DNA of 64,000 nt from an uncultured virus (IMG/VR IMGVR_UViG_3300025502_000013) (Duplodnaviria > Heunggongvirae > Uroviricota > Caudoviricetes), in IMG/VR virus record IMGVR_UViG_3300025502_000013; one strand, 5' to 3'. The notes beneath the pieces are model-generated. The model was not told the DNA's origin, did not search any database, and was given only the letters and a program-made list of their open reading frames with translations. The stretch's first letter is position 1. Every line of letters starts with the position of its first letter. A program made the translations under genes and the position numbers. Shown here piece by piece: positions 1 through 32,907 of the stretch.

Positions 1-2
1 AG

Positions 3-371
3 ATGCAGCACGACAAGGAGAACGAGAAGCCACTCAGGGAGAAGTACGACAAGGAGTTGGAGGCTTGGACTCAGAAGGTCAAGAAGTACGCTCTCACCAT
101 GCCCAAGCCTAAGGACATGGACATGGTTGGGGTTGGGGGAGGCTACTACCACCGTACTGGCTCGGGCAACCCTGAGGATATTACTGTTCAAATAGTCCTT
201 GCGGTTCCGGCTAATAAGGTTCCAGAACGCCCCGAGGCTCCTGACGCTGTTGCGGCTTGGCAGTACCGTGATGCGGTGGAGAACATTGAGAACGCGCTCC
301 GGTTGCTCCGTATGACCGACCAAGAAGAAATCAGCACGGGTACTTACAGCAAAATTGCTCAGTACCTCTAA
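3..371 (+). CDS. Hypothetical protein, probably 5'-truncated by the window edge
   Basis: ORF ends just before the first terminator/promoter unit. Confidence 0.75.
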   Translation: MQHDKENEKPLREKYDKELEAWTQKVKKYALTMPKPKDMDMVGVGGGYYHRTGSGNPEDITVQIVLAVPANKVPERPEAPDAVAAWQYRDAVENIENALRLLRMTDQEEISTGTYSKIAQYL

Positions 372-494
372 CGGCTGGACAGCCCCTCACTACGGTGGGG
401 GTTGTTCGCGTAAAAAATATCGGGCACGGTCTATACAATAAAGACATACCGACACCGAGTAAAAGGCTGGGTGCGGTCTACTGAGGAGGTAGTA

Positions 495-824
495 ATGATT
501 ATCGAGAGTGCGGTCAGGGATAGTTCCCTGGAGTTGTACCTGGACAATGCTCACGGCATTGCCTTTGACACCTGCCACAAGATTTATGTCTTGATGGACA
601 GCGAGCAGATGGGTCTGATGCGGGAGTATGAGTATGACCCTTTGATTTCTTCAGACGAGATGACACCTGCCGAGATGTACGAAACGGTGGCTGGCTGGTA
701 CGAGGAGTCTTGCCAACTGCGGTTTATCCAAGCCGTCACCACAGCCCCAGATAACCCCAACGAGGGCTATGTAGATATAGTTCCCCAGTTCCTACTGTTC
801 AACGAGGACGAGGACGAGGACTGA
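495..824 (+). CDS. Acidic hypothetical protein
   Basis: GAGGAGG RBS before ATG 495; fills one cassette. Confidence 0.85.
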   Translation: MIIESAVRDSSLELYLDNAHGIAFDTCHKIYVLMDSEQMGLMREYEYDPLISSDEMTPAEMYETVAGWYEESCQLRFIQAVTTAPDNPNEGYVDIVPQFLLFNEDEDED

Positions 825-918
825 TAAGGAGAGTGCCCCTCTACGGAGGGGTACTTTCCGTAAAAAGTGGCGTGGTGCGCCGATACAATAAAGACACGGA
901 CAGCAAAGGAGGACAATT

Positions 919-1101
919 ATGTCTGAAAAAGTGACGGTGGCACACCTGCCTACCTGTAACTTCTGTACCAACCTGGCAGGATATGACGCTAGGACGGTGT
1001 TAGGCGCGTGGGCTTACCTATGCGAGGAACATTTCTACCCCATGACCGAGGGACGGCTTGGGACTGGCTACGGTCAGAAACTAATCCTGGAGGAGGCATG
1101 A
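919..1101 (+). CDS. Small Cys/His (zinc-finger-like) protein
   Basis: AGGAGG RBS; CNFC and CEEH motifs. Confidence 0.85.
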   Translation: MSEKVTVAHLPTCNFCTNLAGYDARTVLGAWAYLCEEHFYPMTEGRLGTGYGQKLILEEA

Positions 1102-1244
1102 TGGCAATAGTAGTTAGGCGCTACGGCGTTACACCAACACGCGCCGGTCTGGTATCGACCTGCGTGGAGTGTGGGAGAGTATTCGACCTCACCGATGAAA
1201 CTGACGCTAACGAGTTAGCCTACGGACACGACTGCGAGGTGTGA
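1098..1244 (+). CDS. Small zinc-binding hypothetical protein
   Basis: GGAGGAGG RBS, ATGA overlap with the previous gene; CVEC and HDC motifs. Confidence 0.8.
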   Translation: MMAIVVRRYGVTPTRAGLVSTCVECGRVFDLTDETDANELAYGHDCEV

Positions 1245-1342
1245 GTGACACGGCACGCCCCCTCTCCGGAGGGGGTGCTGTCGTTGTCCCGTAAAAAATT
1301 GGGAGTAGTGGGAATAAAATAAAGGTATCAACGGGAGGAGGA

Positions 1343-1519
1343 ATGATGATATGTCAATACTGTAATGAGAACCCTGTCCGGGAAGGCTGGGCTATCACCT
1401 GCGCCGTGTGTACTTTCATGTGTACACGGTGCAAGGAGGACACACCCTACGAATTAGGAGTGTCCTGGGATAGGTACTGTGACCCCTGCGGTGTTGCGGT
1501 GGCTTCTGTCCCATTCTAA
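1343..1519 (+). CDS. 58-aa protein with four CxxC motifs (not in ORF track)
   Basis: GGAGGAGG RBS; translates MMICQYC...CAVC..CTRC...CDPC...; fills one cassette. Confidence 0.8.
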   Translation: MMICQYCNENPVREGWAITCAVCTFMCTRCKEDTPYELGVSWDRYCDPCGVAVASVPF

Positions 1520-1638
1520 GCGACTCCCCCTCTCCGGAGGGGGTTTCGCCGTTCCGTAAAAAACATGGAGGGGGGCTTATACAATAAAGACATGACGGGG
1601 GGACACTAGGGCTTTCCGCATAACCTGAGGAGGACACC

Positions 1639-1977
1639 ATGGGTGACCGTTCGAATATCGCGATTGTCTACCACACCGGAGAAACTATCTACCTGTACGG
1701 GCATTGGCTCGGGCATGAAAGTCAGAGGATTGTCGCACGCGCAATTTCTGAGGGCAGGCGAATGGAAGACGAGTCTTATTTCGCTCGGATTCTTTTTAGC
1801 AAAATGATTGCTGAGGACATTGCCGGCGAAACCGGCTTCGGTATCGCACCGTATGAGGTAGACCAGGACTACGGCAATCCCACAGTTACCGTGGATTTTC
1901 GTGACCACACGGTGATGCACGACAACTGGGATAACGCTGTCCCGTTCGCTGACTACCCCCGGCTAGTACTGGTATAG
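1639..1977 (+). CDS. Phage hypothetical protein (MGDRSNI...YLYGHW type)
   Basis: Strong RBS; fills one cassette. Confidence 0.85.
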   Translation: MGDRSNIAIVYHTGETIYLYGHWLGHESQRIVARAISEGRRMEDESYFARILFSKMIAEDIAGETGFGIAPYEVDQDYGNPTVTVDFRDHTVMHDNWDNAVPFADYPRLVLV

Positions 1978-2091
1978 CCTGACGGGAGCCCCTCACTTCG
2001 GTGAGGGGCTACCCCGTTCCGTAAAAAATTGGCTACGGCATGGATACAATAAAGACAACAGCAGGGGAAATACCCCTACGGGAGGAGAGTC

Positions 2092-2427
2092 ATGGATACG
2101 GCTACGGTAGTAGGATTGGTGGCTACTACACCACGATATGTAGAAACTATTGACGGGAAGCGTGTTTTATCTTTTCGTCTGGCGTGCCCTCAGAAGGGTT
2201 ACGACAGGGACACCGGCGAGTGGGTGCCTAAAGACACAAACTGGTACACGGTGCTGTGCTTTGACGATGTAGCAAGCGACTGTGTCGACAGGGTTGGCAA
2301 GGGGAGTCGGATTGTTGTAGTTGGTAATCTGATGAAAGTCACAGATTGGTCTGCTGACAGCCCCTCGGGTACTTCGGTAGAAATACACGCCCACACCCTG
2401 GGTAACCTGGGGAAGAACATATCCTAA
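2092..2427 (+). CDS. ssb: Single-stranded DNA-binding protein-like OB fold lacking the acidic C-terminal tail
   Basis: TVVGLVATTPR, SFRLA, YDRDTGEW, TNWYTV and KGSRIVVVGNL match actinobacterial SSB motifs. Confidence 0.8.
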   Translation: MDTATVVGLVATTPRYVETIDGKRVLSFRLACPQKGYDRDTGEWVPKDTNWYTVLCFDDVASDCVDRVGKGSRIVVVGNLMKVTDWSADSPSGTSVEIHAHTLGNLGKNIS

Positions 2428-2519
2428 CGGTAACCCCCTCTCCGGAGGGGGATTACCCGTCTCCGTAAAAAATCACACGGTGCTTCGGTACAATAAAGAT
2501 ATGGAAAGGAGGTCAGCAA

Positions 2520-2723
2520 ATGTCTGACATAAAATACCCTGAGGTGGAAGTAGAACTGGTAGGACAGGACGGCAACGCGTTCGCTGTTATGGCAAGAGTG
2601 AGCAAGGCTCTCCGCCGGGCTAGTGTGGCTCAGCAGGAGATTGACGAGTACCTCAAGGAATCTACCTCTGGGGACTACGACCACCTAGTGGCAACCGCCA
2701 CCCGGTGGGTTACGGTTCACTAA
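2520..2723 (+). CDS. Conserved small phage protein (LVGQDGNAF...SGDYDHL family)
   Basis: AAGGAGG RBS; motif recognised from phage hypothetical proteins. Confidence 0.85.
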   Translation: MSDIKYPEVEVELVGQDGNAFAVMARVSKALRRASVAQQEIDEYLKESTSGDYDHLVATATRWVTVH

Positions 2724-2851
2724 CCCCACACGGCACTAGCCCCTCTTCGGAGGGGTTATTGTCGTCCGTAAAAAATGCGGTGAGGACACCATACAATAAA
2801 GACATAGACAAGGAGGCACTAGAACTCTTTGCTATAACCTGAGGAGGAACT

Positions 2852-3073
2852 ATGTACGAGGTCGAGACCAGAATGGTCATAACCACACCACGGTGTCCCG
2901 AGTGCGGAGAGGCTGGCATTCTCCAAATCCCGGCAGACGGCTACGACCGCTGGGCAGAGGGTGCGCTTATTCAAGAAGCCTTTCCCAACCTTTCCCTAGC
3001 CCTTAGGGAACAACTGAAGACCGGCTATCACGGCGCTTGCTGGGATACGGCTTTTGGACCCGTCCCTTTTTAG
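2852..3073 (+). CDS. Small Cys/His hypothetical protein
   Basis: RBS; CPEC, LIQEAFPNLS...RE.LKTGYH..CWD. Confidence 0.85.
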   Translation: MYEVETRMVITTPRCPECGEAGILQIPADGYDRWAEGALIQEAFPNLSLALREQLKTGYHGACWDTAFGPVPF

Positions 3074-3202
3074 CCCCACACGGCAATTCCCCGGCTTAGG
3101 CTGGGGTTTTGTCGTCCCGTAAAAAATGAGGGAACACGGGAATATAATAAAGACATAGACACCAAGCAAAAGGCTTAGTGTCACTACCCTGGAGGAGTAC
3201 CT

Positions 3203-3478
3203 ATGAGTACACGGGCAAAGGTAAGGGCAAAAGTCCTTGCAGATGGTGGGACCTTTGAGGAGGGCTACACCGGCTGGGCAAGCGACACCTACTGGGTCGA
3301 GGTAACACTCTCCGATTCAGAAACGGTGTGGGCTTGTGAGGCGACAGAGTACGACAGCCTCTGGACCCTGAGGGTCGAGCAAGAGGATAGCGAAACTCGC
3401 GCTCAGATGTGGAGCTATGTCTGGGACAAGGTACGCTTTCCCGTAGTTCGCCGTGATAGCTTCTCACAAGCTGTCTAA
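3203..3478 (+). CDS. Hypothetical protein
   Basis: GGAGGAG RBS; fills one cassette. Confidence 0.8.
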   Translation: MSTRAKVRAKVLADGGTFEEGYTGWASDTYWVEVTLSDSETVWACEATEYDSLWTLRVEQEDSETRAQMWSYVWDKVRFPVVRRDSFSQAV

Positions 3479-3603
3479 CCCCCAAGCCCCTGTCAGAAAT
3501 GGCAGGGGTTCCTGGGGTGCCGTAAAAAAATTCTATCGAAGGTCGTACAATAAAGACAACGGCACACGGGGTACGCCTGTGAGCCACTACCTGAGGAGGC
3601 ACT

Positions 3604-3717
3604 ATGAGTGACAACCCTTTCGACAACCTGGACATTATCAACCAGGACGCGATTGACGCGATGGATGACGAAACCGTCAAGACGGTTTGGGAAATCCTTA
3701 CCAAAGCCGGCTACTAG
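3604..3717 (+). CDS. 37-aa acidic peptide (not in ORF track)
   Basis: GAGGAGG RBS; MSDNPFDNLDIINQDAIDAMDDETVKTVWEILTKAGY. Confidence 0.75.
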   Translation: MSDNPFDNLDIINQDAIDAMDDETVKTVWEILTKAGY

Positions 3718-3774
3718 GCGAGAGAGGGCGGGGAAACCCGCTCTCTCCCCCTACCCCAACAGAAAGAGGAAAGA

Positions 3775-4002
3775 ATGTTAGAAAGAATTACACGGGTAAA
3801 TTACTACTGGAAAGACACGGTAATCCCTGGAGATACTGACGCACAAGTAGTTATCCTGAACGATAGCGACAAGTACGAACAAATGTCTAATGATGGAAGT
3901 TTCGATGAGCGTATCTGGTTCTACTTTCAGAATGAAGATGAGTTCCAACGAGCCTTTGACCCCGCTAACACGGAGTTCGAGTTCGTCCTCACCGGAGGAT
4001 AG
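3775..4002 (+). CDS. Acidic hypothetical protein
   Basis: GAGGA RBS; ends before a terminator. Confidence 0.8.
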   Translation: MLERITRVNYYWKDTVIPGDTDAQVVILNDSDKYEQMSNDGSFDERIWFYFQNEDEFQRAFDPANTEFEFVLTGG

Positions 4003-4143
4003 GTTTTCCTCCCAGGGAAAAAGCACAAGCCCCGCCATTTCTGGCGGGGTTTTGTGTGTCCGTAAAAAGTTAGGGGACACGGGGATACAATAAAAACATC
4101 AGCACGGAACAAGCGGTGTTCTGTGTCTAACCCTGGAGGAACT

Positions 4144-4299
4144 ATGTATTACTTTGTTACGGTTATAGAAAAAGCCTCACGAGAGATTGTGGCGACTTAT
4201 CTTGACGCCTTTGAGTCTGACGCTCACGAGAGGGCTCAGACCATTGGAACCATTGAAGGCTACGCGGTGTTCATTACTAGTGGTGACCCACTCTCATAG
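4144..4299 (+). CDS. 51-aa hypothetical protein (not in ORF track)
   Basis: GGAGGA RBS; MYYFVTVIEKASREIVAT...; fills one cassette. Confidence 0.75.
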   Translation: MYYFVTVIEKASREIVATYLDAFESDAHERAQTIGTIEGYAVFITSGDPLS

Positions 4300-4425
4300 C
4301 AACTAGGGGAGCCCCAGCTTAGGCTGGGGTTTCTGCTGTCCGTAAAATTCGATCGACACGGACGATACAATAAAAGCACAGACAGGGACACAAGGTTTCT
4401 GTCCTAACCCTGGAGGATAGCAATT

Positions 4426-4614
4426 ATGCGTTCACACGATGGATTGGCAGAATGGGCTTTGGAACAAGCCACCACACGGGAGCAAATTGCTCACCACATC
4501 GAGCGTTTGCGCGATGATGCCCTGATGATTCACGACTACCCCGAGCAGGCTATCGCCTTTATCGAGGACGAACTCCGTGAGATTCGGGTGCTACTGGCTA
4601 GGGATTCAGACTAG
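4426..4614 (+). CDS. Hypothetical protein
   Basis: GGAGGA RBS; fills one cassette. Confidence 0.8.
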   Translation: MRSHDGLAEWALEQATTREQIAHHIERLRDDALMIHDYPEQAIAFIEDELREIRVLLARDSD

Positions 4615-4731
4615 CCAGACACGGAACCCCTCTCCGGAGGGGTTTCGGTCGTCCGTAAAAATCGATCGAAGGACGGAATACAATAAAAACATCAGCACGG
4701 AAATACCGGGCGATTGCTGGGAGGAGTGGCT

Positions 4732-4938
4732 ATGCCCACTTTGGTTGTCACGGACACCAACAAGATTGGTGTCGATGGTTTGGTGGAAAGGCTTGCCGAC
4801 CACATCATTATGGTAGTCGATAGGCGCGGGTATGGTGAGCAGGACAATGTCCACACCATCACGCTTGCCGACACCATTCGCAACACGGAGGCGCACGGGC
4901 TTGCCTGTCGCCTAGGGTTTCTCGCCCACATCGAGTAG
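4732..4938 (+). CDS. Hypothetical protein
   Basis: GGAGGAG RBS before ATG 4732. Confidence 0.8.
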   Translation: MPTLVVTDTNKIGVDGLVERLADHIIMVVDRRGYGEQDNVHTITLADTIRNTEAHGLACRLGFLAHIE

Positions 4939-5068
4939 CCCTGCCCATACTGTCCCCTCTCCGGAGGGGATAGTGTGCGTTTGCTGTCCGTAAAATTCGA
5001 TCGAAGCACGGAATATAATAAAGACACAAGCACACGGGAACCCCTGTGGCTTACCTGAGGAGGAACTA

Positions 5069-5152
5069 ATGAGTGAAAATATGTGTTCAGGCTGTGGCGA
5101 TATCTGCCGGGCAAGTGAATCAAAGTGCGGTATCTGTAGAGGGGGGTGGTGA
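5069..5152 (+). CDS. 27-aa Cys-rich peptide (not in ORF track)
   Basis: GAGGAGG RBS; MSENMCSGCGDICRASESKCGICRGGW. Confidence 0.65.
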   Translation: MSENMCSGCGDICRASESKCGICRGGW

Positions 5153-5155
5153 GAG

Positions 5156-5332
5156 ATGGGCATCACGGAAATGTTCCAACTGATTCGCCAAGTCTGGTCA
5201 GACTCTATGTCAGACAATGGCGCTATCTGGGAACGCTCTAACGCGGAACTACAGAATGCTAAGGCTAACTACCCCGACCTGTACGAAGAAGCCCTGGCTA
5301 TGGCATACGAGGCGAGTGTGAATCAACGATGA
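5156..5332 (+). CDS. 58-aa hypothetical protein (not in ORF track)
   Basis: Bridges the previous peptide and the 5329 ORF with an ATGA overlap. Confidence 0.7.
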   Translation: MGITEMFQLIRQVWSDSMSDNGAIWERSNAELQNAKANYPDLYEEALAMAYEASVNQR

Positions 5333-5532
5333 GCCAGACACCAGACACGGCTTATGGGGTAACGCTCAGTTTCACATTCCACGAGCCACGGAACAAGACA
5401 CGGGAAGAAGCCGAGCGCTTTATCAACGAGTATGTGAGCAGACTCGCCGAGAATGACGAGAGTGACCTACCCGAAGTCCGATGGGACGATGTGGAGTGGA
5501 ACATCGTGGAACTACTGCCAGAAGCACAGTAA
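5329..5532 (+). CDS. Acidic hypothetical protein
   Basis: Translational coupling; ends before a terminator. Confidence 0.8.
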   Translation: MSQTPDTAYGVTLSFTFHEPRNKTREEAERFINEYVSRLAENDESDLPEVRWDDVEWNIVELLPEAQ

Positions 5533-5661
5533 GCCACAAGCAAGCCCCTGGCGAGAGCCGGGGGTTTTGCTGTCCCGTAAAATTCGATCGAAGCACGGAA
5601 TATAATAAAGACATAGCACAAGGGCACAAGGTCCTAGTGCTCTAACCCTGAGGAGAAAGAA

Positions 5662-5982
5662 ATGCTGAAAGAGAAACTGACCACACTGCCGGAGTTGTAC
5701 AGCACGGACGAGACGAAGGGCGACCTGCCTGCTGTTTATGTGTTCACACCAGACGCTGGAGCGACCTGGGTGCTTTGGGAGTACAGCCCCGAAGAAGGAC
5801 TGGCGTTCGGGCTGTGCGACCTGGGCTTGGGCTTTCCCGAGATGGGATATGTCTCAGTCCCCGAGTTGGAATCACTACGCGGTAAGTTTGGCTTGCCTGT
5901 CGAGGTAGACACCAGCGTCACCACACGGTTCCAGGGCTACGAGAAGGCTGGAGTGTCGACCCCTGAGTACCTGATGGCTTGA
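5662..5982 (+). CDS. DUF2958-family protein
   Basis: FTPDAGATW and AFGLCDLGLGFPEMGYVS..ELE..RG..GLPVE.D signature. Confidence 0.85.
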   Translation: MLKEKLTTLPELYSTDETKGDLPAVYVFTPDAGATWVLWEYSPEEGLAFGLCDLGLGFPEMGYVSVPELESLRGKFGLPVEVDTSVTTRFQGYEKAGVSTPEYLMA

Positions 5983-6091
5983 GAGCCGTACCCCCCAGCC
6001 CCCACTCCGGTGAGGGTTGGGGCAGTGTGCTCGTAAAATTCGATCGAAGCACGGGTTATACTAAAAACATCACAAGGGAAAGGAGACAATA

Positions 6092-6244
6092 ATGTCTTAC
6101 ACTTACAAAATAGTGTTTGTGATAATCACCCTGGGAGTGGTACTCTCTTTCCACGACACCTACTGGCCTTGGGCTATGGTTCCTCTGGTGCTTTCGGCAC
6201 TGGTTGGCGCTATTGGGCTCAGGCTCGGGGGTCGAGGAAAATAA
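6092..6244 (+). CDS. 50-aa protein with two predicted membrane segments (not in ORF track)
   Basis: AAGGAG RBS; two hydrophobic stretches and a basic C-terminus. Confidence 0.75.
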   Translation: MSYTYKIVFVIITLGVVLSFHDTYWPWAMVPLVLSALVGAIGLRLGGRGK

Positions 6245-6386
6245 GTTTTCCTCCCAGGGGAAAAGGCAGACCCCCTACTTCGGTAGGGGGTTCTGTCATT
6301 CCGTAAAAAAGACATAGCACGGAGAATATAATAAAGACATAGACAGGGAGACAAAAGGGCTTTCTGCTATAACCTGGGAGGTCATT

Positions 6387-6596
6387 ATGGCTAAGCAGTT
6401 TCGAGTCCTCGCAAGCAAGTCGGGCTTCAAGACGTTCGACTTCACTTATGACGCACACGAGGAGTCATACGCTCGCAAGGTCGCTAACACACTGAGCGAT
6501 GAAAATTGGTCAGTGTGGTTTGAGACCCTCGATGACAAGCACCAGAGTGCGGTCATCAACGACCTAGACTTTGTCTTCGGCAAGACACAGTTCTAA
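6387..6596 (+). CDS. Hypothetical protein
   Basis: GGGAGG RBS; fills one cassette. Confidence 0.8.
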   Translation: MAKQFRVLASKSGFKTFDFTYDAHEESYARKVANTLSDENWSVWFETLDDKHQSAVINDLDFVFGKTQF

Positions 6597-6729
6597 GGCG
6601 CACGGCAGACCCCTGGCTTCGGCTAGGGGTTTTGTCGTTCCCCGTAAAATTCGATCAACACGACTTGTAGAATAGAGATATCACAGAGAGACACTAGGGC
6701 TTTCTGGATATCTGGGAAGGAAACAAATT

Positions 6730-6921
6730 ATGTATCAGGTAAAAATCTTTACACACAGAGATGCCTCGCTCTTCGCCGAGTCTGAGACGTTCCAGACTAG
6801 GGAGGAAGCCGATGCCTACGCCACGTCTGTTGGCACGGGAGAGGGCTACTGGACCGAGATTCACCACTCGCAGGCGGTGTGGAGCAACTTCACATCACAC
6901 GAGAGGCTTGCCCACCAGTAA
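6730..6921 (+). CDS. Hypothetical protein
   Basis: RBS; fills one cassette. Confidence 0.8.
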   Translation: MYQVKIFTHRDASLFAESETFQTREEADAYATSVGTGEGYWTEIHHSQAVWSNFTSHERLAHQ

Positions 6922-7044
6922 GCCCTCACCCCAGGACCCCACTTCGGTGGGGCTTCTGGCATTCCGTAAAATTCGATCGACCCTAGGAATACAATAAAGA
7001 CATAGACAGCAGGGAAATGCCCTGTGTCTACCTGGGAGGCACTA

Positions 7045-7266
7045 ATGGCTCACAACTACAAGGTCAATGGCTGGTTCGGTTCTACCACGGCAGGGTGGCG
7101 TATCGCCCTGGAGCCTGCTTTCTTCGAGGACATCGAGGAGGCACGGCTCTATGCCCAGGGACTCCACCTAGCCAATCAGGAGGCTAACACGGAAGCCTAC
7201 GAGGTCGAGGTCTTCAGACTTCGGGAGCGAGGTCTTGCTCTCCGAGTCCTGGAGTACAGCGCCTAG
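7045..7266 (+). CDS. Hypothetical protein
   Basis: GGGAGG RBS before ATG 7045. Confidence 0.8.
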   Translation: MAHNYKVNGWFGSTTAGWRIALEPAFFEDIEEARLYAQGLHLANQEANTEAYEVEVFRLRERGLALRVLEYSA

Positions 7267-7349
7267 GACTACCCCAGGGACCCCACTTCGGTGGGGTTTC
7301 TGGAGTTCTTGCGCCGTAAAAATCCCGGAGTGAGATTGGTACAATGGAA

Positions 7350-7440
7350 CCACACCACAAGGGAGCACAGGGCTCCTCGCGGAGCTCTCCACGAGAGCAA
7401 GCTCTAGCTCATCACCAGGACCCCACTTCGGTGGGGTTTC
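7350..7440 (+). ncRNA. Candidate ~90-nt small RNA from an ORF-less cassette
   Basis: Intact promoter at 7315-7345, two hairpins and a terminator at 7418-7440; no start codon between them. Confidence 0.45.
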
Positions 7441-7516
7441 TGGCGTTTATAGGTTTTTACGATAAAGGTGTGTAGGGTAGTGGCAACTAACTAATATTTA
7501 TTTCTAGGGGGGAATA

Positions 7517-15868: not shown

Positions 15869-17698
15869 GTGGGCATATACACTCGAGGCGAGTCTGATGA
15901 CTCCACCCCGACTCCCCCAAAAGCTAAAAGCCAGGGCATCAGGACCTCCGGCAAAAACAGTTCCCGGTCTACTCAGTATGTAGTCAACAAAAAAGTTCCG
16001 CAGCCTTCGGCATTCTCTAATCTTTTCATTGCCAACTCTCCAGCGTCGTCTGTTCCCTATAACTACCCTCGCTCGATGACAGCGGCTGCTGCTCAAATGA
16101 AGGTCAACGACCGCGCTGAGTTTGAGCAGTTTAAGTCTCGCCGCTCCGCTTCTTCCAGCGCTTGGCAGTCTGAGGCCTGGGAATATTACGACGCAATCGG
16201 GGAAATTAAATACGCTTTTAATCTTGTTTCATCAGTAATCTCCAGAATCCGCATTTATTCAGCAACTGTTGACGACCCCAGCCAGGCTCCCATCTCAGTA
16301 CACGAGTCTGGAACAATTGAAGCCAACCTTGCTTCTGCTGCAGAGCGTGCTCTAGCCCGTCTTAGCTCTGCGTACGGCGGACAGGCTGGTCTTTTGAGAG
16401 ACGCCGCCTTGAACATCTCTGTCACAGGTGAGTGCTATCTCGTCCAGTTCCCAGCTCGCATTGGCTCCGGGGAACCAGAGTCCTGGGACGTAAGATCCGT
16501 TGATGAAGTCCTTCCTGACTCTAAAGGTAACTTTGCTGTAGCCGGACGCCGTGAGCAGCTTAGTGGCCAGGGGGCTTCTCAGGGAATGGGACTGTACCCA
16601 CTTCCTAAGTCAGCTTTTGTTGGGCGCATTTGGCGATCACACCCTCGCTTTTCCGATGAAGCAGACAGCTCCTTGCGCGGTCTTCTTGACCTGTGTGCTG
16701 AGCTTCTTTTGCTCAACCGCACATTCCGTGCAACAGCTCGTTCACGTCTTAACGCCGGTGCTCTCTACCTGCCAGACGGACTTTCCGTTGCCGCCCAGGC
16801 TGACCCTAACTACCCCTTTGATGATGAAGATGGCATGGGCGCTTCGTTTACACCTGAAGAGGCAGAAGACGAGTTCGAAGAGCAACTGATTGACGCAATG
16901 ACGACCCCCATCAGGGATGAAGAGTCTGCAAGCGCCGTTGTTCCTTTGATTATCCGTGGACCTGCCGAGCTTGGTGACGCAATCAAGCAGTTCAAGTTTG
17001 AGCGTTCCTTCGACCCAGCACTGGCTGAGCGTTCGGACCGCGTCCTTGAGCGCATCATGCAGGGCCTTGACGTTCCTAAGGACGTCGTTTCGGGAATGGC
17101 GAACGTTAAGTACTCCAACGCCCTACAAATCGACGAGAGCCTCTACAAGGCGCACATTGAGCCTTTGATGCTTCTTATTGTCGACGCGCTTACGGCTGTC
17201 TACCTTCGCCCCTACCTTATTGCTCAGGGGTACCCAGAAGTTGACGTAAACCGTCTTGTTGTTTGGTATGACCCCAGCGCTGTCTCTACTCGTAATGACC
17301 GAGCAACAGACGCAGACGCAGGGTTTGACCGGGGAGCAATCAGTTACGACACCTGGCGACGGGCTCATGGCTTCTCCGACCAAGACGCACCCAAGCCTAC
17401 CGAGGTAGCCCTCCGGATGCTCCAAGAGCGCGGAGTTATCACGCCTGAGCTTACCGAGGCACTTCTTGGTGTGGTTGCGCCTGATGTCATGGAAGCGGTC
17501 CGTGGTGCCTCTCAGGGCGCTTCCGCAGGCCCCATCCCCCCTGAGCTAGAGCAAATACTGCAACAGGCAGCTGGCGGAGCCCCCGCAGACCCGGCTGCTG
17601 AAGAGTCAGAAGCTCCGGCAGCTCCCCAGGAGGAATCACCCGGAGCGCAGGCCGGGCAAGAGCCTCCAGGCCTGGGTATTCCCGAGGTAGCCCCGTAA
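15869..17698 (+). CDS. Portal protein
   Basis: WQSEAWEYYDAIGEIKY, RIWRSHPR..EADS and SAVVPLII motifs of actinophage portals; position at the start of the head module. Confidence 0.85.
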   Translation: MGIYTRGESDDSTPTPPKAKSQGIRTSGKNSSRSTQYVVNKKVPQPSAFSNLFIANSPASSVPYNYPRSMTAAAAQMKVNDRAEFEQFKSRRSASSSAWQSEAWEYYDAIGEIKYAFNLVSSVISRIRIYSATVDDPSQAPISVHESGTIEANLASAAERALARLSSAYGGQAGLLRDAALNISVTGECYLVQFPARIGSGEPESWDVRSVDEVLPDSKGNFAVAGRREQLSGQGASQGMGLYPLPKSAFVGRIWRSHPRFSDEADSSLRGLLDLCAELLLLNRTFRATARSRLNAGALYLPDGLSVAAQADPNYPFDDEDGMGASFTPEEAEDEFEEQLIDAMTTPIRDEESASAVVPLIIRGPAELGDAIKQFKFERSFDPALAERSDRVLERIMQGLDVPKDVVSGMANVKYSNALQIDESLYKAHIEPLMLLIVDALTAVYLRPYLIAQGYPEVDVNRLVVWYDPSAVSTRNDRATDADAGFDRGAISYDTWRRAHGFSDQDAPKPTEVALRMLQERGVITPELTEALLGVVAPDVMEAVRGASQGASAGPIPPELEQILQQAAGGAPADPAAEESEAPAAPQEESPGAQAGQEPPGLGIPEVAP

Positions 17699-18750
17699 TG
17701 GCAGACCCAAAAGAGGTATACGCAGCTCTTCACAAGACTGAAGAGCTTCTTGCCGAGATGCGCAAAGAGGCCCGGGAGCTTTCTACTAAGAAAACGGGAG
17801 CAGGAACCCCGGCTCCTAAGAAAGATCGGGTCAAGGGGTCTAAGAAAAACCCCAAAGGTTCTGCATCCGGGGATAAAAAAATTACTTTTGACGCCAAAAC
17901 TGAGACAGCCATTAAAAACAAGGTTGAAGAGCACAACAAGACCGCTAAAAAGGGCCGTAAGGCCACCACAAGGATGCTCAAGGCAGTCTACCGCCGTGGA
18001 GCTGGTGCCTACAGTACCTCACACCGCCCCGGAAAGACTCGCAATCAGTGGGCAATGGCTCGAGTAAACGCTTTCCTCAAGCTTTTGCGCTCTGGAAAGC
18101 CCTCCAAGGCTGCTTACACTCAGGATAACGACCTTCTTCCCGCTGCACACCCTAAGTCTTCAAAGAAAAGCGCTTCTACCCTTACTGCATCGGGGCTGAT
18201 ACCCGAAGAGCAAGCCTTAGCAGATGCTTTGGCGGAGGTTGTAGCAGTCCACGGCAAGTTTGACCAAGACGGTGACGGCGTTTGGGCGGGCTACACTCCC
18301 GCAAACGAAAACGAAGACGCCGCAATTGGCGTTAAGTGTTCAAACTGCGTTTTTTACCAAGGCGGAGACCAGTGCGGAATCATCAGTCTCAGTGTTGAAC
18401 CAGAGGGCAAGTGCCGCTTTGCTGTTTTGCCCGAGGGGGCCGTCCAGGGAGACAAAGTCCCCCTTCGAGACCCCGAGTCTCTCGATCTTTTGCTTGCCTC
18501 TGCGGACGCTTCCGGCGAGTTGGCCATCTCACTAAAGGACTATTCAGAGTATAATTCTGTAGAAGAAACAGTCATCGCTTTAACAGAGGCTTCGGGTATG
18601 GGATACGACGCAGAATTTGCCATTAAGGCGGCTTGGATGCGTGCAGTTAGAAACGGAGAAGACCCGTTTGAGCGGGCAAAGCAGCTTGCGCTAAACCCCG
18701 CTGGTAGCCTTGATGTACACCTTCTTCCTGCAGACTGGGAGGACAGGTAG
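17698..18750 (+). CDS. Head-associated protein: basic domain (LKAVYRRGAGAY..SHRP..WAMARVN) plus a 4-Cys domain
   Basis: Motif recognition; CSNC...C...C cluster. Confidence 0.65.
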   Translation: MADPKEVYAALHKTEELLAEMRKEARELSTKKTGAGTPAPKKDRVKGSKKNPKGSASGDKKITFDAKTETAIKNKVEEHNKTAKKGRKATTRMLKAVYRRGAGAYSTSHRPGKTRNQWAMARVNAFLKLLRSGKPSKAAYTQDNDLLPAAHPKSSKKSASTLTASGLIPEEQALADALAEVVAVHGKFDQDGDGVWAGYTPANENEDAAIGVKCSNCVFYQGGDQCGIISLSVEPEGKCRFAVLPEGAVQGDKVPLRDPESLDLLLASADASGELAISLKDYSEYNSVEETVIALTEASGMGYDAEFAIKAAWMRAVRNGEDPFERAKQLALNPAGSLDVHLLPADWEDR

Positions 18751-21700
18751 TGTCTGATAATATTCCCGTCTCCCCCCTTAACTATCACGGTTCCTTCGAG
18801 GACGAGAATAATCAAATTATTGACGCGGCTCTGGAGTTTGCACATGATGCCAACCAGGGCTATACGGGCACCCGGGTTGCCACAGACGGAGTAGTTCTCG
18901 ACGTTGCCAGGCGGACTCTCCGGGAACTAGACAACCATCCTTTCTCTGTTCGTAAACATCTTACTTTGACAGATGTTTCTCACTTTATTGTTTTGCTTCA
19001 GAAAGACAAGGCTGTTACCGCCTCGGTCCAGCACACCGATCTTCTCCCCGTTGCCCACCCTCGGTCTTCCGCAGAGCACGAGCTGAGTAACCAAGATCTG
19101 TTCGCCGCCAAAGCCCGCTGGATTGCCGACGACCCGTCTATTAAAGACGAGGAAACTCGTGCCATGGTTGCCTCGATGCTTACGGCTCCTGAGGGCTCTG
19201 CTGAGCGCGAATATTACGCAACCAGGCTTGAGAACAGCCCCCAGGGGGCTATTCCTGTAAGAGCCTTGATTGCGGCGTTTACCGGCGGCCTAGGCGCTAA
19301 CAAGGGTTACTGGATGCGCCAGCGTCGTGACCGTAAGGGTCGCTTTGCTTTCGAGGGCGGTGGCCTTAGTGTATTGGTCAAGGGCAGCACAGGTGCTGTT
19401 CGCAGGCTGACTGGTCGTACTGTTGGTCCGGGTGTTGGTGAAAAAAATGACTATTTTGATATGGAAGTTTCTCCCGGAAGCCTTGTCCGTGTTCCAGCAT
19501 CTGCAACCGAGTCTTCTAAAGCGTACTTGCCTAGCCCAAACGCCCCGGACGGATACAGCCCTCAAAAGGCTCGGGTCCAAGCTGGCGACCCCGTCATCGA
19601 CGAAAAAGACTTAATTCGTCCTGATGCTCCCAGTGGCTTTAATAAAGTTGCCGACGGAGCTGATGTCGACTCTCCCGAGGAAAAAGAGTACTATGGCGAA
19701 GACGCCGACTTTGGTACAGTGTACGAAGACGAAAATTATACTGTCCGGCAGTTTGACTCAGGGTCTTCCCCCGTTGCCCGAGACAATTTTAACTTGGCTC
19801 AGGAAGCCGAGCAGTCTTGTGGGCTCACCGCAGCCGGTGAGGGCGATAACTGTCCGATTAAAACTAGTGGCGCTGGTGAAAACGGAAGCTTTGACCCAGA
19901 GAAGCCGGTTTTGTTTGTCAGCCGTACAGACGACGCGAGCAATCCTGACATCTTTGCGGCCTCCCAGAGCTGGGCGGACACCCTAGACTACATTCGTCAG
20001 GATGAGCCTCGGTACGAAGCCGAAGATAGACCAGCCCCTTACATCAAACTTGGTGACCCGAGTAGGCGGGATAACCTTGACCCCACTAGGCGCGAAGAGG
20101 GCCCACGCGGCCCCGATAATAGAAGAGTCGATCCACACGGCTTTATTATTCCGGATAAACCCGGCCTTATTGATGGCGGGGGAAGAGTAAGACCTGACGG
20201 AACAAGAGAGTTGCTCGAGGGGCGTCGGCCGGACAGCTATCCGATGCGCATCCCCCTCCCGGGCCCCTGGAACCCCCGCATTCCCGGCACTGGGCGAAGG
20301 CCCCGCCCCGGAGGAGGCCGCGCTCCTGGCGGAGGCGGACGCTCTCCCGGAACAGGACGCCGCTGGGGCTCCAACGGCCCTAACGAGGGCCACGCTCCCT
20401 ACCCAATCCCTGGGCGTCGTGTCTACCCCGGCGAAATTGCGGACATGCGCGTTGGATCAGAGATGGAGCAATATCTCGGAGGATTCCTTTCGACTCTCTT
20501 TGGAACAGCAAAAAAGCGACAGCTACGAAAAACTGGTGCTGACGAGTGGGTTGACCTGGAGACCGGAGAGACTTACACTAACGATCAAGTCTCAGAGATG
20601 GCCGCAACTAGTGGTAAAGATAGTTCTCCTTTTACGGGACTTGCGACAGGACCCGAGGTACGCCCCGGAACATTTACTAAAATGATGTCAGGCTCGCTTT
20701 TTAGCGAGCTTCCCACCGGCAGTGAGCTTAATGATCACCTAAGACTTTTTAACGTTATGACCCAGTTCCGCAAGGTTGGGTATAACCAGTGGCGTCGGTG
20801 GGACGGCAAAATCTTTACAGATGCTGAGGTGCAAAAAAAGAGCGGCACTATGCAGATTGACCGAGTTGGAGAATTTGGTCCTGGTAGACCCCCCGGTGGG
20901 GAAGTATCAGGAGAATCCTCTAAACCAAGACTCCCCAGAGGTCCACTGACCCCCGAAGAGCTGGCCGAGCTTCGCCCCGGATCCCTTATTTCTATACCTG
21001 GAGAAGACGATCAACCTCCTCGCTTCTTTGTAAAAGTAGGCGAAAACGACTGGCGCGAGATTGACCCAGAGAATTTTACGTCAGACCCTGCAGTTTCTTT
21101 CACTGATGAAGACATTCTCAACATGGGTAAGGACATTACTCTAGAGAAAGAGCCAGAGGCCTACGAACAGGGGCAACTAGGCATGCGTCCATCAGATCTT
21201 TCTCCTGAGGCCCTGGAAAACCTCCCCGAGGGCACAGTTGTAGGGACTTCAGATGAAGAAATTGATAACCTCAACATTCCCCGGCAGCCCTATGCGACTG
21301 AAGAGGCGTACCAAGCAGCCCTAGAAGAAGCCAAAGAGTTTTACCGCCGCAATAGGTGGCGTAAGCGTGGTCCCAACGAGTGGGTAAATGACTTTGGTGA
21401 GTTTGCTACAGACGCAGATATTGCAGACGGAAAGAAAACTCCTGGACTTATTATCTCTCTCGGCGATGAGGTTAGCACCCCCGAAGGCTACTACGATTTA
21501 AATCGAGAAGAGCTTTACACGCCTACAGGCGGCGCAGAAGGGCAAACCTCACCTGACTTCACCGATGACCCCGCAGAGCTGGCTCAACGTTTCTCAGAGG
21601 AAGAGCTGCAGGCAGCCCTTAAAGAAGCCCTCGAGAACCCCAACGGTTTTGGCTATCTAGAGTTTGCAGAAGGCGACGAGCCGGTGCCTGCAGAAGCACT

Positions 21701-32333: not shown

Positions 32334-32472
32334 AAACTTTCTAGACAAAAAATCGGTTGAAGACTACTATTATATTGTGGACAGTGCTTTCTATGACGGA
32401 ACTGCTGCAGAAGACGTAGAGTCCGATAAAAAGTACGCTGAAGAGAATCCCGAAAAGGCGGAGGATTTATAA
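32326..32472 (+). CDS. 48-aa acidic protein (not in ORF track)
   Basis: GGAG RBS; overlaps the end of the giant gene. Confidence 0.55.
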   Translation: MIENFLDKKSVEDYYYIVDSAFYDGTAAEDVESDKKYAEENPEKAEDL

Positions 32473-32630
32473 TGGATAAAGATAAAACACCCACAATGTG
32501 GACTGAAGAGATCCTTGAAAAGTATCTCCGAGTAATCGAGCTAGCCGAAGTAGACCCAAATGTTCTTCAAGAAAGAGCAGATGCTGTTGTACCCATAGAG
32601 TTGCCAGAAGGAGAGAAGCCCCGTGAGTGA
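32472..32630 (+). CDS. 52-aa protein (not in ORF track)
   Basis: GGAGG RBS; TAATG coupling. Confidence 0.6.
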   Translation: MDKDKTPTMWTEEILEKYLRVIELAEVDPNVLQERADAVVPIELPEGEKPRE

Positions 32631-32907
32631 TTCTCCTGAAGAAAAATTAACAGATCATATGTACATTATTTATGACGCTCCCACGGGTCAAGTCACCCAG
32701 GTTAAGTACGAAACAGCTGCGCACGGGCTGTGGACCAGAATTCAAGGGGAGTGGCGGGAATTAGCTTTAGAAGATGAGAGCGAAGATTTTATGGAGCGCA
32801 GAGAAATTGCTGGAAAAAACTACCTAGAAACTCGTGACTATTTTGACGACCAAACCGAGCAAAAGATACTTACCTACGAGCCAGAGTACAGGATGTGGTT
32901 TGCTTAA
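32623..32907 (+). CDS. Hypothetical protein
   Basis: AAGGAG RBS; operon packing. Confidence 0.7.
   Translation: MSDSPEEKLTDHMYIIYDAPTGQVTQVKYETAAHGLWTRIQGEWRELALEDESEDFMERREIAGKNYLETRDYFDDQTEQKILTYEPEYRMWFA

What the first reader, a model, noticed from the sequence alone, without database searches (positions are those of the whole stretch)
443..7376. Covarying 5'-UTR hairpin with a conserved A(A/C)AAG-type pentaloop
Seen: leaders fold into stems of different sequence closed by similar loops: GACACCAAGC-AAAAG-GCTTAGTGTC (3158-3182), GACAGGGAC-ACAAG-GTTTCTGTC (4381-4403), AGCACAAGGGC-ACAAG-GTCCTAGTGCT (5615-5641), GGAGC-ACAGG-GCTCC (7362-7376), and on the minus strand GGC-ACAAG-GCC (13335-13345). 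Most are followed by (A)CCTG(A/G)GGAGG into the RBS. Inference: an RNA motif under structural selection, either a 5' stabiliser or a protein-binding site (boxB-like) that co-regulates the cassettes.
Basis: partly seen in the sequence, partly recalled or inferred. Interest (0 to 1): 0.7.

Follow-up and report, generated by a model that had tools for sequence, protein, structure and literature searches.

The report
Hairpins at phage early mRNA starts
An uncultured salt-lake phage drives about twenty tiny early genes from copies of one promoter, and most of these messages probably begin with a small RNA hairpin that likely shields the 5' end from decay; this is a familiar device with no special conserved loop.

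Summary
They are more widespread than reported, but the "conserved pentaloop" is not a general feature.

**Setting.** Window 410-7349 holds 19 tandem plus-strand mini-cassettes in an actinophage-like siphovirus. Each has a GC hairpin, a promoter-like block (GTAAAA-N18-TAcAAT-AAAGACA), a leader, a GGAGG ribosome site and a small ORF.

**Hairpins.**
- 14 of 18 coding cassettes carry a hairpin starting at +1 to +7 of the predicted transcript start.
- Every leader of 35 nt or more has one; every leader of 28 nt or less has none.
- The first 34 nt of the leaders fold far better than random windows of the same phage (mean z -2.6 against -0.14, p about 2e-9).

**Loops and covariation.**
- A(A/C)AAG occurs in only 4 of 14 loops, apparently two pairs of likely paralogues. 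The other loops differ.
- A sequence alignment of all 14 gives no consensus structure.
- A subgroup of four shows 3 compensatory pairs out of 11.
- One covariance model does not unite the set.

**Other tests.**
- Removing the hairpin in silico does not change predicted ribosome-site accessibility.
- Related phages have analogous promoter cassettes but no excess of such hairpins.

**Reading.** These are most likely generic 5'-terminal protective stem-loops spread with a shuffled leader module. A boxB-like site is not supported. The earlier scan noted similar cassettes on other DNA.

The parts
410..7349 (+). Array of 19 promoter-like blocks, each spanning exactly 34 nt: GTAAAA, 18 nt, TA(C/T)AAT, AAAG. 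Starts: 410, 860, 1291, 1556, 2021, 2465, 2768, 3119, 3522, 4062, 4342, 4655, 4990, 5577, 6033, 6303, 6644, 6966, 7316. Predicted transcript start is the A 7 nt after the -10 hexamer.
   Evidence: Regex scans: 19 hits on the plus strand within 410-7349 and 1 stray hit on the minus strand in all 64 kb. Transcript starts are predicted, not mapped.
448..477 (+). Leader hairpin c410. 11 pairs, loop AAAAG, 2 unpaired 5' nt.
   Evidence: -16.0 kcal/mol, z -3.78.
1592..1621 (+). Leader hairpin c1556. 11 pairs, 9-nt loop ACACTAGGG, pairing from +1. Subgroup A.
   Evidence: -8.9 kcal/mol, z -0.98 (weak on its own); compensatory changes within the subgroup.
2063..2077 (+). Leader hairpin c2021. 5 pairs, loop AAATA, 6 unpaired 5' nt. 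In front of an SSB-like gene.
   Evidence: -7.7 kcal/mol, z -3.08. SSB family.
2804..2835 (+). Leader hairpin c2768. 11 pairs, bulged A, loop GCACTAGAA, pairing from +1. Subgroup A.
3158..3182 (+). Leader hairpin c3119. 9 pairs, loop AAAAG.
   Evidence: -11.3 kcal/mol, z -3.9 for the part before the ribosome site.
3561..3585 (+). Leader hairpin c3522. 9 pairs, loop GTACG.
   Evidence: -14.9 kcal/mol, z -2.62.
4102..4126 (+). Leader hairpin c4062. 10 pairs, loop AGCGG.
   Evidence: -12.7 kcal/mol, z -2.90.
4381..4403 (+). Leader hairpin c4342. 9 pairs, loop ACAAG.
4693..4719 (+). Leader hairpin c4655. 8 pairs with a large internal loop, inner loop AAATA. The weakest of the set.
   Evidence: -6.0 kcal/mol, z -0.98.
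5028..5052 (+). Leader hairpin c4990. 10 pairs, bulged A, loop AACC.
   Evidence: -13.2 kcal/mol, z -3.50.
5615..5641 (+). Leader hairpin c5577. 10 pairs, loop ACAAG. In front of a DUF2958 gene.
6339..6370 (+). Leader hairpin c6303. 12 pairs, bulged A, loop ACAAAAGGG, pairing from +1. Subgroup A.
6680..6709 (+). Leader hairpin c6644. 11 pairs, loop ACACTAGGG, pairing from +1. Subgroup A.
7003..7030 (+). Leader hairpin c6966. 11 pairs, loop AAATG.
   Evidence: -15.0 kcal/mol, z -4.11.
478..7044 (+). Conserved block between hairpin and start codon in the long leaders: A-Y-C(C)-T-G followed by the purine run (G/A)GGAGG, 6-12 nt before ATG. The four short leaders instead have AAAGGAG-type sites 5-10 nt from the predicted start.
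   Evidence: The block is present in 12 of 14 long leaders by eye. CCTGRGGAGG exact matches occur 4 times, all in this array.
7352..7452 (+). Last cassette: same promoter type, then about 100 nt with no ribosome site or ORF, ending in a terminator-like hairpin at about 7415-7443. Either a small RNA or the terminator-bearing leader of the operon that starts at 7517.
   Evidence: -42.7 kcal/mol, z -4.72, 0 of 200 shuffles as stable. No Rfam match.
13330..13350 (-). Minus-strand leader hairpin (3+3 pairs, 2x2 internal loop, loop ACAAG), followed by ACCTGGGAAAGG and the ATG at 13310.
12726..12748 (-). Sister minus-strand leader hairpin of the same shape, loop ACGAA, in front of a duplicate copy of the same gene (ATG at 12705).
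   Evidence: Duplication of 12274-12573 as 12879-13178 at 100% identity.

Best explanation
The hairpins are the 5'-terminal stem-loops of short, mostly monocistronic early phage mRNAs.

**Architecture.** Each cassette is a self-contained unit: a GC-rich hairpin ending the previous unit, a sigma-70/SigA-like promoter, a leader, a strong GGAGG ribosome site and a small ORF.

**Two leader types.** One is 16-28 nt long and puts the ribosome site right at the 5' end. The other is 35-55 nt long and begins with a hairpin of 5-12 pairs.

**Proposed function.** The hairpin most likely base-pairs the first nucleotides of the transcript. 5'-end-dependent decay (pyrophosphate removal, then RNase E or RNase J entry) would then be slowed, so the message lasts longer and yields more protein. 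In the short leaders a ribosome bound at the 5' end would do the same job.

**What is selected.** Pairing and position, not the loop. The shared A(A/C)AAG loops reflect common descent of a few copies and the A-rich, T-poor make-up of the leaders.

**Origin.** The hairpin leader spread through the array together with the promoter by duplication and recombination of regulatory modules.

**Status of each step.**
- Shown: the repeats, the hairpins, their excess stability, their fixed place relative to the -10 element, their independence from the ribosome site, and a few compensatory changes.
- Inferred: the transcript start, use of the host polymerase, and the stabilising effect.
For: 1. 19 promoter-like blocks have identical geometry on one strand. 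The -10 hexamers are TACAAT, TATAAT or close variants.
2. The split by leader length is complete over 25 coding cassettes of this phage: 17 of 17 leaders of 35 nt or more have a hairpin, 0 of 8 leaders of 28 nt or less do.
3. The hairpin opens at +1 to +8 of the predicted start, with 0-4 unpaired nt in 15 of 17. In the three long upstream leaders it stays at the 5' end while the distance to the ribosome site grows to 14-21 nt.
4. Excess stability: mean z -2.58 for all 18 window leaders against -0.14 for 300 random windows, p 1.9e-9. 10 of 18 pass a strict test against 97 of 1000.
5. Stems differ in sequence yet all pair. In the alignable subgroup 42 of 42 cells pair and 3 of 11 pairs changed on both sides.
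6. Predicted accessibility of the ribosome site is 0.57 with the hairpin and 0.59 with it removed (p 0.46), so it is not a translational occluder.
7. No T-run follows the hairpin on the plus strand, so it is not a terminator of its own transcript.
8. [quoted passage not shown] The B. subtilis pyrophosphohydrolase needs at least two unpaired 5' nt, and RNase E is slowed by a base-paired 5' end. These are passages read in PMC3997798, whose reference list names the ompA, papA, aprE and SP82 cases.
Against: - No transcript start, RNA level or half-life is known. No RNA run holds this DNA, and if the true start lies a few nt upstream the 5' end would be less tightly paired.
- Two hairpins (c1556, c4655) are no more stable than shuffles (z about -1). 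Two leave 6-7 nt unpaired.
- Related phages with the same kind of early cassette array show no excess of such hairpins: 22 of 237 leaders against 144 of 1185 random windows (p 0.22). The device is therefore not generally needed in this phage group.
- The sequence flanking the hairpin is better conserved than a pure structural role requires (AUAGACA at the start, AYC(C)UG before the ribosome site). This leaves room for a specific factor.
- 13 of 16 window loops begin with A-(A/C)-(A/G), which may be composition and descent but has not been separated from selection.
Confidence: 0.5

Rival explanations
1. The hairpin is a specific protein-binding operator. Together with the conserved AYC(C)UG-GGAGG block it would be bound by a phage or host RNA-binding protein that switches the whole early class on or off. 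Analogues would be a translational repressor of early messages or a boxB-type site.
For: - The pre-ribosome-site block is shared by 12 of 14 long leaders, and its conservation extends several nt upstream of the GGAGG ribosome-site core.
- Many stems carry a bulged A followed by CA, and loops are A-rich at their 5' side.
- CACAAGG recurs in 5 leaders.
- Cluster K mycobacteriophages have an unexplained, similarly placed conserved block at start codons (PMC3203893, section read).
Against: - The loop motif is present in only 4 of 14. Loop length runs from 4 to 9 nt, and stem length, bulge position and stem sequence all vary.
- A covariance model built from one subgroup fails to find 5 of 14 hairpins at any threshold.
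- None of the 23 small proteins of the array has a recognisable RNA-binding domain. 2 have any Pfam hit: SSB and DUF2958.
- No Rfam match.
Confidence: 0.12
2. The hairpin has no function of its own. It would be a by-product of how the leaders arose (duplicated pieces of translation-start regions and inverted repeats made by recombination or replication slippage), carried along as the promoter module spread.
For: - Relatives do without it.
- The array evolves by module shuffling. One gene is present twice at 100% identity behind two different promoter-leader modules.
- Eight promoters share a nearly identical spacer.
- The 5' arms look like degenerate ribosome sites. For example, the arm and loop of c2768 resemble the ribosome site and spacer of c3522 and c6966; this was seen by eye and not tested.
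Against: - Stems have diverged strongly while pairing is kept in all 17 long leaders.
- Double compensatory changes are present in the subgroup.
- The all-or-none link between leader length and hairpin, and the fixed 5' position, are not expected from neutral debris.
Confidence: 0.12
3. The inverted repeat acts at the DNA level. It would be either an operator or roadblock site for a repressor just downstream of the start, or a recombination hot spot that mediates cassette shuffling.
For: - It lies at +1 to +32, a common operator location.
- The lower arms share GACA(C/G)...(C/G)TGTC in 3 cassettes.
- PeSL stem-loops of T4-type phages promote modular shuffling (PMC2839356, abstract and section 13 read).
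- In Adephagia the extended start-associated repeat is now read as part of a promoter (PMC11373665, passages).
Against: - Half-site spacing varies (18, 20 and 22 bp between the shared arms), and most arms differ in sequence. One DNA-binding dimer could not read them.
- G-U pairs and compensatory changes point to RNA pairing.
- A far better operator candidate exists elsewhere: the palindrome TTCGATCGAA in the promoter spacer.
Confidence: 0.08
4. The hairpin acts during transcription or translation set-up rather than in decay. A nascent-RNA hairpin could aid promoter escape, or it could insulate the ribosome site from variable upstream and coding sequence so that each cassette expresses predictably.
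For: - The hairpin locks up the pyrimidine-rich 3' arm. Without the 5' arm, predicted ribosome-site accessibility falls from 0.57 to 0.43 (p 0.058).
- It forms an independent domain.
Against: - Removing the whole hairpin leaves accessibility unchanged, so there is nothing to insulate against unless the hairpin is already there.
- The effect on accessibility is marginal.
Confidence: 0.08
5. The hairpins work on the opposite strand as intrinsic terminators. Read on the minus strand, each is followed by the T-rich complement of the promoter's AATAAAGACAT, which could stop antisense transcription through the early region.
For: The consensus scan of the 14 leader hairpins terminator-like on the minus strand: 3182-3158, 2079-2061 and 3577-3561.
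Against: - There are no minus-strand genes and no copy of the phage promoter motif on the minus strand in 400-7400.
- Generic promoter-like hits there are at chance level: 6 against 4.8 +/- 2.3.
- The T-run is interrupted and is explained by the promoter itself.
- 11 of 14 are not called.
Confidence: 0.04

Closest known systems
5'-terminal stabilising stem-loops of bacterial and phage mRNAs (ompA, papA, aprE leaders; SP82 and ribosome-site stabilisers), as reviewed in PMC3997798 (passages and reference list read)
   Same: - The hairpin sits at or within a few nt of the predicted 5' end.
- No sequence requirement is evident.
- It is separate from the ribosome site.
- The alternative design in the same array (ribosome site right at the 5' end) matches the second known class of 5' stabiliser.
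   Different: - Here the device is repeated in front of at least 17 genes of one phage as part of a shuffled module.
- The host is presumably an actinobacterium, for which such elements are little studied.
- Function is untested.
PeSL (promoter-early stem-loop) cassettes of T4-type phages (PMC2839356: abstract and section 13 read; PMC4122927: search listing only)
   Same: - Dense repeats of a strong sigma-70-like promoter plus a GC-rich stem-loop lie between small genes of unknown function in a plastic early region.
- There are signs of module shuffling, including a gene duplicated behind two different modules.
   Different: - A PeSL has one stem-loop, read as a terminator, placed around or upstream of the promoter.
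- Here there is a terminator hairpin upstream and a second, different hairpin inside the transcript.
- The phage is an actinophage-like siphovirus, not a T4-type myovirus.
Start-associated and extended start-associated sequences (SAS/ESAS) of Cluster K mycobacteriophages (PMC3203893: section 15 read; PMC11373665 and PMC12699233: passages read)
   Same: - Both are in actinophages.
- A conserved block containing the ribosome site lies 3-9 nt before ATG starts.
- It is restricted to non-structural genes with long intergenic gaps.
- About half of the sites have an imperfect inverted repeat with a variable spacer just upstream.
- The role is still called unclear in 2024-2025.
   Different: - The SAS consensus is absent here: 2 chance-level matches in the window, neither at a start.
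- ESAS arms are 15-17 bp, conserved in sequence, and now read as overlapping a SigA-like promoter. Here the repeat lies downstream of the -10 element and varies in sequence.
Lambda-type boxB/N antitermination sites (features recalled, not from a call)
   Same: A small hairpin with a purine-rich pentaloop in an early phage leader.
   Different: - Loops start with A rather than G and are not uniform.
- Stems have 5-12 pairs rather than about 5.
- There is one element per gene instead of one per operon.
- No boxA-like partner or N-like protein was identified.

Membership tests
5'-terminal mRNA-stabilising stem-loop (functional class) | Stem-loop begins at or within about 4 nt of the transcript's 5' end | tested here: inconclusive
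   With the start predicted 7 nt after the -10 hexamer, 15 of 17 hairpins leave 0-4 nt unpaired. The start itself is not mapped, and no RNA run was listed.
5'-terminal mRNA-stabilising stem-loop (functional class) | Acts through pairing, not through a particular sequence | tested here: met
   Stems and loops differ between cassettes while pairing is kept. 3 of 11 pairs in the alignable subgroup are compensated.
5'-terminal mRNA-stabilising stem-loop (functional class) | Lengthens mRNA half-life | not testable with these tools
   Needs half-life measurements on stem mutants.
boxB / N-utilisation hairpin | Uniform short stem with a GNRA-like pentaloop (recalled definition), once per early operon, with a cognate arginine-rich antiterminator | tested here: not met
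   - Loops of 4-9 nt, 14 of 17 starting with A, only 4 of 14 sharing A(A/C)AAG.
- One element per gene.
- No such protein among 23 small ORFs.
Cluster K SAS/ESAS | 13-bp SAS consensus (at most 2 mismatches) 3-9 bp before start codons | tested here: not met
   2 matches in 64 kb against an expected 1.9, neither at a start codon.
Cluster K SAS/ESAS | Imperfect 15-17 bp inverted repeat with a per-genome consensus, upstream of the SAS and overlapping a SigA-like promoter | tested here: not met
   The repeat here has 5-12 pairs, lies downstream of the -10 element and has only a loose arm consensus.
PeSL-type promoter-terminator cassette | Repeated sigma-70-like promoter joined to a GC-rich stem-loop between small early ORFs of unknown function | tested here: met
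   - 19 promoter blocks, each preceded by a GC hairpin.
- 21 of 23 small ORFs have no Pfam family.
- Promoter and terminator activity are not tested. This describes the cassette, not the leader hairpin.
Any curated RNA family (Rfam 15) | Score at or above a family's gathering threshold | tested here: not met
   0 matches in the whole window. At E up to 5 in 1-8000 there are 7 weak hits, none on a leader hairpin and all far below threshold.
N4-type hairpin promoter read by a virion RNA polymerase | DNA hairpin with a short stem and 3-nt loop upstream of the start, plus a giant virion RNA polymerase (recalled definition) | tested here: not met
   - The 4527-aa protein carries ArdC, metallopeptidase, UvrD-helicase and exonuclease domains, with no polymerase hit.
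- The hairpins lie downstream of a sigma-70-like -10.
- The genome outside the window was not seen.

The most novel reading that the evidence does not exclude
The hairpin plus the conserved AYC(C)UG-GGAGG block would be a two-part RNA operator private to this phage lineage. A phage-encoded factor, possibly one of the unknown small early proteins or the neighbouring 100-nt non-coding RNA, would read it to time or shut off the whole early class. It would be a working counterpart of the still unexplained start-associated sequences of Cluster K mycobacteriophages.
Probability: 0.1. Interest if true: 0.55.

Novelty: new member of a known kind. Interest (0 to 1): 0.3.

Why it matters
- If the reading is right, this is a natural, highly repeated example of insulated expression cassettes: terminator, promoter, protective 5' hairpin, strong ribosome site. 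It comes from a phage of an uncultured salt-lake actinobacterium.
- The 17 natural stem variants behind one promoter type make a ready-made series for testing how 5' structure sets mRNA life-time in actinobacteria, where this is poorly known.
- It also offers parts for gene expression in such hosts.
- It does not reveal a new principle.

Tried and rejected
- **Close relatives by DNA.** Megablast of window 1-12000 against phage records found no match.
- **Whole genome.** None is held for this window, and the record behind L106 is not held for searching. The upstream cassettes are therefore known only from five 1.2-1.7 kb loci.
- **Promoter pattern in IMG/VR.** 28 loci, each with a single match and no arrays, so chance hits.
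- **Promoter pattern in metagenome contigs.** 80 loci are listed in the call's table (of 119 matching stretches). The loci with clustered or same-contig matches that I opened turned out to be this same phage (3 cassettes letter-identical to the window). No independent relative with this promoter was found, so no orthologous covariation test was possible.
- **Relatives through the DUF2958 gene.** 3 distant loci at 53% identity over part of the protein, of no use for leader comparison.
- **RNA evidence.** No RNA holder was listed. All 20 holders are DNA runs labelled salt lake metagenome and may include the source.
- **Population variation.** Laying contigs of 4 runs gave 7 variant places, none in a leader hairpin and no informative variation.
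- **One covariance model for all hairpins.** Model R1, built from 4 sequences, finds 3 more at E 0.02-0.19 in the whole window. In the 7-kb search it finds 2 more at E about 2.6, mixed with 7 non-leader hits. 5 of 14 are never found.
- **RNAalifold on the MAFFT alignment of 14 leaders.** 0 pairs. I read this as misalignment of stems of unequal length, not as absence of structure.
- **Hairpin as a general feature of the phage group.** Rejected. 39 of 237 leaders pass a loose criterion. With a strict criterion 22 of 237 pass against 144 of 1185 random windows. Only locus L075 stands out, with 7 of 9 on the loose criterion.
- **CACAAGG as a genome-wide motif.** 15 matches against 9.5 expected, and 4 of 100 shuffles reach 15. 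It is concentrated in leaders but occurs in three different structural contexts.
- **Integron attC-like reading.** Considered only. The cassettes carry their own promoters and no integrase was seen. Not tested further.

Full report
**What the window is.**
- The 64-kb window belongs to a tailed phage. It encodes a portal (15869-17698), a major head protein (37861-39906), a major tail protein, a tape measure (44810-48043), a family A DNA polymerase (54679-56514), an SNF2 helicase and a PD-(D/E)XK nuclease.
- It also encodes a 4527-aa protein with ArdC, metallopeptidase, UvrD-helicase and exonuclease domains.
- By tblastn the nearest named relative is the metagenome-assembled Actinomycetia phage DSL-LC01 (head protein 71%, polymerase 56%). 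Large Microbacterium, Arthrobacter and Gordonia phages follow.
- There is no nucleotide-level match among phage records, no tRNA and no Rfam family.
- The same DNA stands in contigs of 20 DNA runs labelled salt lake metagenome. The host is unknown, presumably an actinobacterium.

**The array.**
- From 410 to 7349 the plus strand carries 19 copies of a block of fixed length: GTAAAA, 18 nt, TA(C/T)AAT, AAAG. There is only one stray match on the other strand in the whole window.
- Each block is preceded by a GC-rich hairpin with a tetraloop and a short, broken T-run.
- In 18 cases it is followed by a leader, a GGAGG-type ribosome site and a small ORF starting with ATG.
- Of the 23 small proteins, 21 have no Pfam family. 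One is SSB-like and one is DUF2958. The genes are unrelated to each other, so what is repeated is the control region.
- The hexamer and its spacing fit a sigma-70/SigA-type -10 element. The start is predicted at the A 7 nt downstream. This is inference; nothing maps it.
- Metagenome loci that are letter-identical to the window over three cassettes show that the array continues upstream of the window, with at least 7 more cassettes of the same promoter type.

**The hairpins.**
- I folded each leader from the predicted start to the ribosome site. Of 25 coding cassettes, 17 have a hairpin: 14 of 18 in the window and 3 of 7 upstream.
- The split by leader length is complete. All 17 leaders of 35-55 nt have one, and none of the 8 leaders of 16-28 nt does.
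- The hairpin opens at +1 to +8, leaving 0-4 unpaired nt in 15 of 17. It has 5-12 pairs and folds at -6 to -16 kcal/mol.
- In the window it ends 0-8 nt before the ribosome site. In the three long upstream leaders it stays at the 5' end and an A-rich spacer of 14-21 nt follows.
The 7362-7376 hairpin is possible, but in the best fold of that 101-nt transcript those bases pair elsewhere.
- The minus-strand example is the inner part of a 3+3-pair hairpin in a leader of the same type.

**Is it more than chance?** Yes.
- For a fixed 34-nt window from the predicted start, all 18 leaders (short ones included) have mean z -2.58 against dinucleotide shuffles (Stouffer -10.9).
- The comparison sets are 300 random windows of the same phage (-0.14) and 36 windows inside the cassettes' own ORFs (-0.36). 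Mann-Whitney p is 1.9e-9 and 1.3e-6 respectively.
- With a strict test (-8 kcal/mol or better, opening within 6 nt), 10 of 18 leaders pass against 97 of 1000 random windows.

**Is the loop conserved?** Only in part.
- A(A/C)AAG closes 4 of the 14 plus-strand hairpins. The two AAAAG copies (c410, c3119) share most of their stems, and the two ACAAG copies (c4342, c5577) share their flanks. This looks like two descent groups rather than four independent cases.
- The other ten loops are of 4-9 nt and differ.
- The duplicated minus-strand gene carries ACAAG in one copy's leader and ACGAA in the other, on otherwise equal stems.
- CACAAGG is concentrated in leaders but stands in a loop, in a 5' arm and in a leader without any hairpin.
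- Loops do tend to start with A. The leaders are 32% A and 17% T, and hairpins in related phages also have A-rich loops. Composition is therefore a sufficient explanation, though I did not test this formally.

**Covariation.**
- A plain alignment of the 14 leaders gives no consensus structure, because stems of unequal length are misaligned.
- Four leaders that are clearly homologous (c1556, c2768, c6303, c6644) align without trouble. Their 11 pairs are formed in 42 of 42 cells, and 3 pairs changed on both sides. 9 of 500 shuffles do as well, and sliding the partner drops pairing to 40-60%.
- A covariance model from these four finds c5577, c4342 and c4990 at E 0.02-0.19. It finds c410 and c3119 only among noise and never finds the other five.
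- The set is therefore not one tight RNA family. It is a collection of related and unrelated stems that share position and pairing.
- No orthologous leaders from other phages could be found, so a proper phylogenetic test remains undone.

**What it does not do.**
- It does not cover the ribosome site. The predicted unpaired probability of the site is 0.57 with the hairpin and 0.59 with it removed.
- It is not followed by a T-run, so it is not a terminator of its own transcript.
- On the minus strand 3 of 14 look terminator-like, because the promoter's complement is T-rich. Nothing is transcribed that way.
- Its arms are too variable in sequence and spacing for one DNA-binding protein.

**Relatives.**
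- DSL-LC01 and 58 IMG/VR loci found through the neighbouring AAA ATPase each have their own repeated promoter motif in front of small genes. It is mostly an extended -10 type.
- Their leaders are usually short and unstructured, ending in AACGACGAAAGGA. Single cases of strong 5' hairpins exist.
- Overall they are no more frequent than in random sequence: 22 of 237 against 144 of 1185. By a looser rule the figure is 39 of 237, with locus L075 at 7 of 9.
- The upstream cassettes of the window's own phage also use the AAAGGAG-type site. The hairpin-plus-AYC(C)UG-GGAGG leader is thus a local expansion in this phage, not an old conserved element.

**Mechanism.**
[quoted passage not shown] It also matches the finding that the enzymes which open decay from the 5' end need unpaired nucleotides there (PMC3997798, passages read).
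- The array shows both designs, hairpin or 5'-proximal ribosome site, and no leader with neither.
- I therefore read the hairpins as 5' protective stem-loops, with confidence about 0.5.
- The remainder is spread over a specific RNA-binding factor, a neutral by-product of module shuffling, a DNA-level role, and effects on transcription or translation set-up.

**Comparison with known systems.**
- The cassette as a whole resembles the PeSL promoter-terminator cassettes of T4-type phages (PMC2839356), but PeSLs have no transcript-internal second hairpin.
- The pairing of a conserved start-codon block with an upstream imperfect inverted repeat recalls SAS/ESAS of Cluster K mycobacteriophages (PMC3203893). 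However, the SAS consensus is absent, and ESAS repeats are now placed within a promoter (PMC11373665).
- The boxB comparison fails on loop, stem and distribution.
- The earlier scan noted similar 'promoter plus leader hairpin' arrays on other DNA. I did not test those notes.

Noticed in passing
window 4348-4357, 4661-4670, 4996-5005, 5583-5592, 6039-6048, 6650-6658, 6972-6981 (and a variant at 3531-3540): Eight promoters in the right half of the array carry the palindrome TTCGATCGA(A), or a one-mismatch variant, directly after GTAAAA, between the -35-like and -10 elements. There are 21 matches on both strands against 10 expected, and 0 of 100 shuffles reach 21. This is a classic operator position, and the motif also contains GATC. 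It may mark a co-regulated sub-class of the cassettes.
   Followed up: partly
window 7316-7516: The last promoter of the array is followed by about 100 nt with no ribosome site or ORF. It is strongly structured (z -4.7) and ends in a terminator-like hairpin about 70 nt before the GTG start at 7517 of the operon with the AAA ATPase and VWA protein. It is either a small RNA or a terminator-bearing leader that gates the next gene class. No Rfam match.
   Followed up: partly
window 12274-12573 and 12879-13178 (minus-strand genes 12481-12705 and 13086-13310): This is a tandem duplication at 100% identity, 605 nt apart, of a small minus-strand gene and its downstream terminator. Identity stops about 4 nt upstream of the start codon, so the two copies sit behind different promoter-leader modules. 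It is a direct sign of module shuffling.
   Followed up: partly
window 13400-14200: This non-coding stretch has long runs of CCCC/ACCCC words, short direct repeats (for example repeated 'tgtct..agt' words near 13890-13960) and A/T runs. It lies between the leftward and rightward gene blocks and may be the genome end, the packaging region or the replication origin.
   Followed up: no
window 18750-32333: A single 4527-aa ORF combines exonuclease, UvrD-type helicase, ArdC N-terminal and zincin metallopeptidase domains. It sits between the portal region and the head genes and is likely an injected anti-restriction or DNA-protection giant protein.
   Followed up: no
loci L032, L047, L060, L073 (IMG/VR relatives): In these relatives the word GGTAAAAA recurs 10-18 times per locus in two settings. 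One is directly before ATG as ribosome site plus spacer. The other is after terminators, about 100 nt upstream of TTGACA-type promoters. Its relation to the window's CCGTAAAA -35-like word is unexplained.
   Followed up: no
window 2804-2824 against 3593-3606 and 7035-7047; 1596-1612 against 1627-1643: The 5' arm plus loop of some hairpins resembles a ribosome site plus spacer from other cassettes. For example, AAGGAGGCACTAG in c2768 resembles GAGGAGGCACTATG in c3522. This hints that the hairpin leader arose from a duplicated translation-start region. It was seen by eye and not tested statistically.
   Followed up: no
L029 (DSL-LC01) 23587-37370: About 30 promoters of this relative share GATTCTAAAG-N-GTTATAAT-AGAATC. 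In other words, the -10 element is bracketed by a 6-bp inverted repeat, which is another operator-like arrangement.
   Followed up: no
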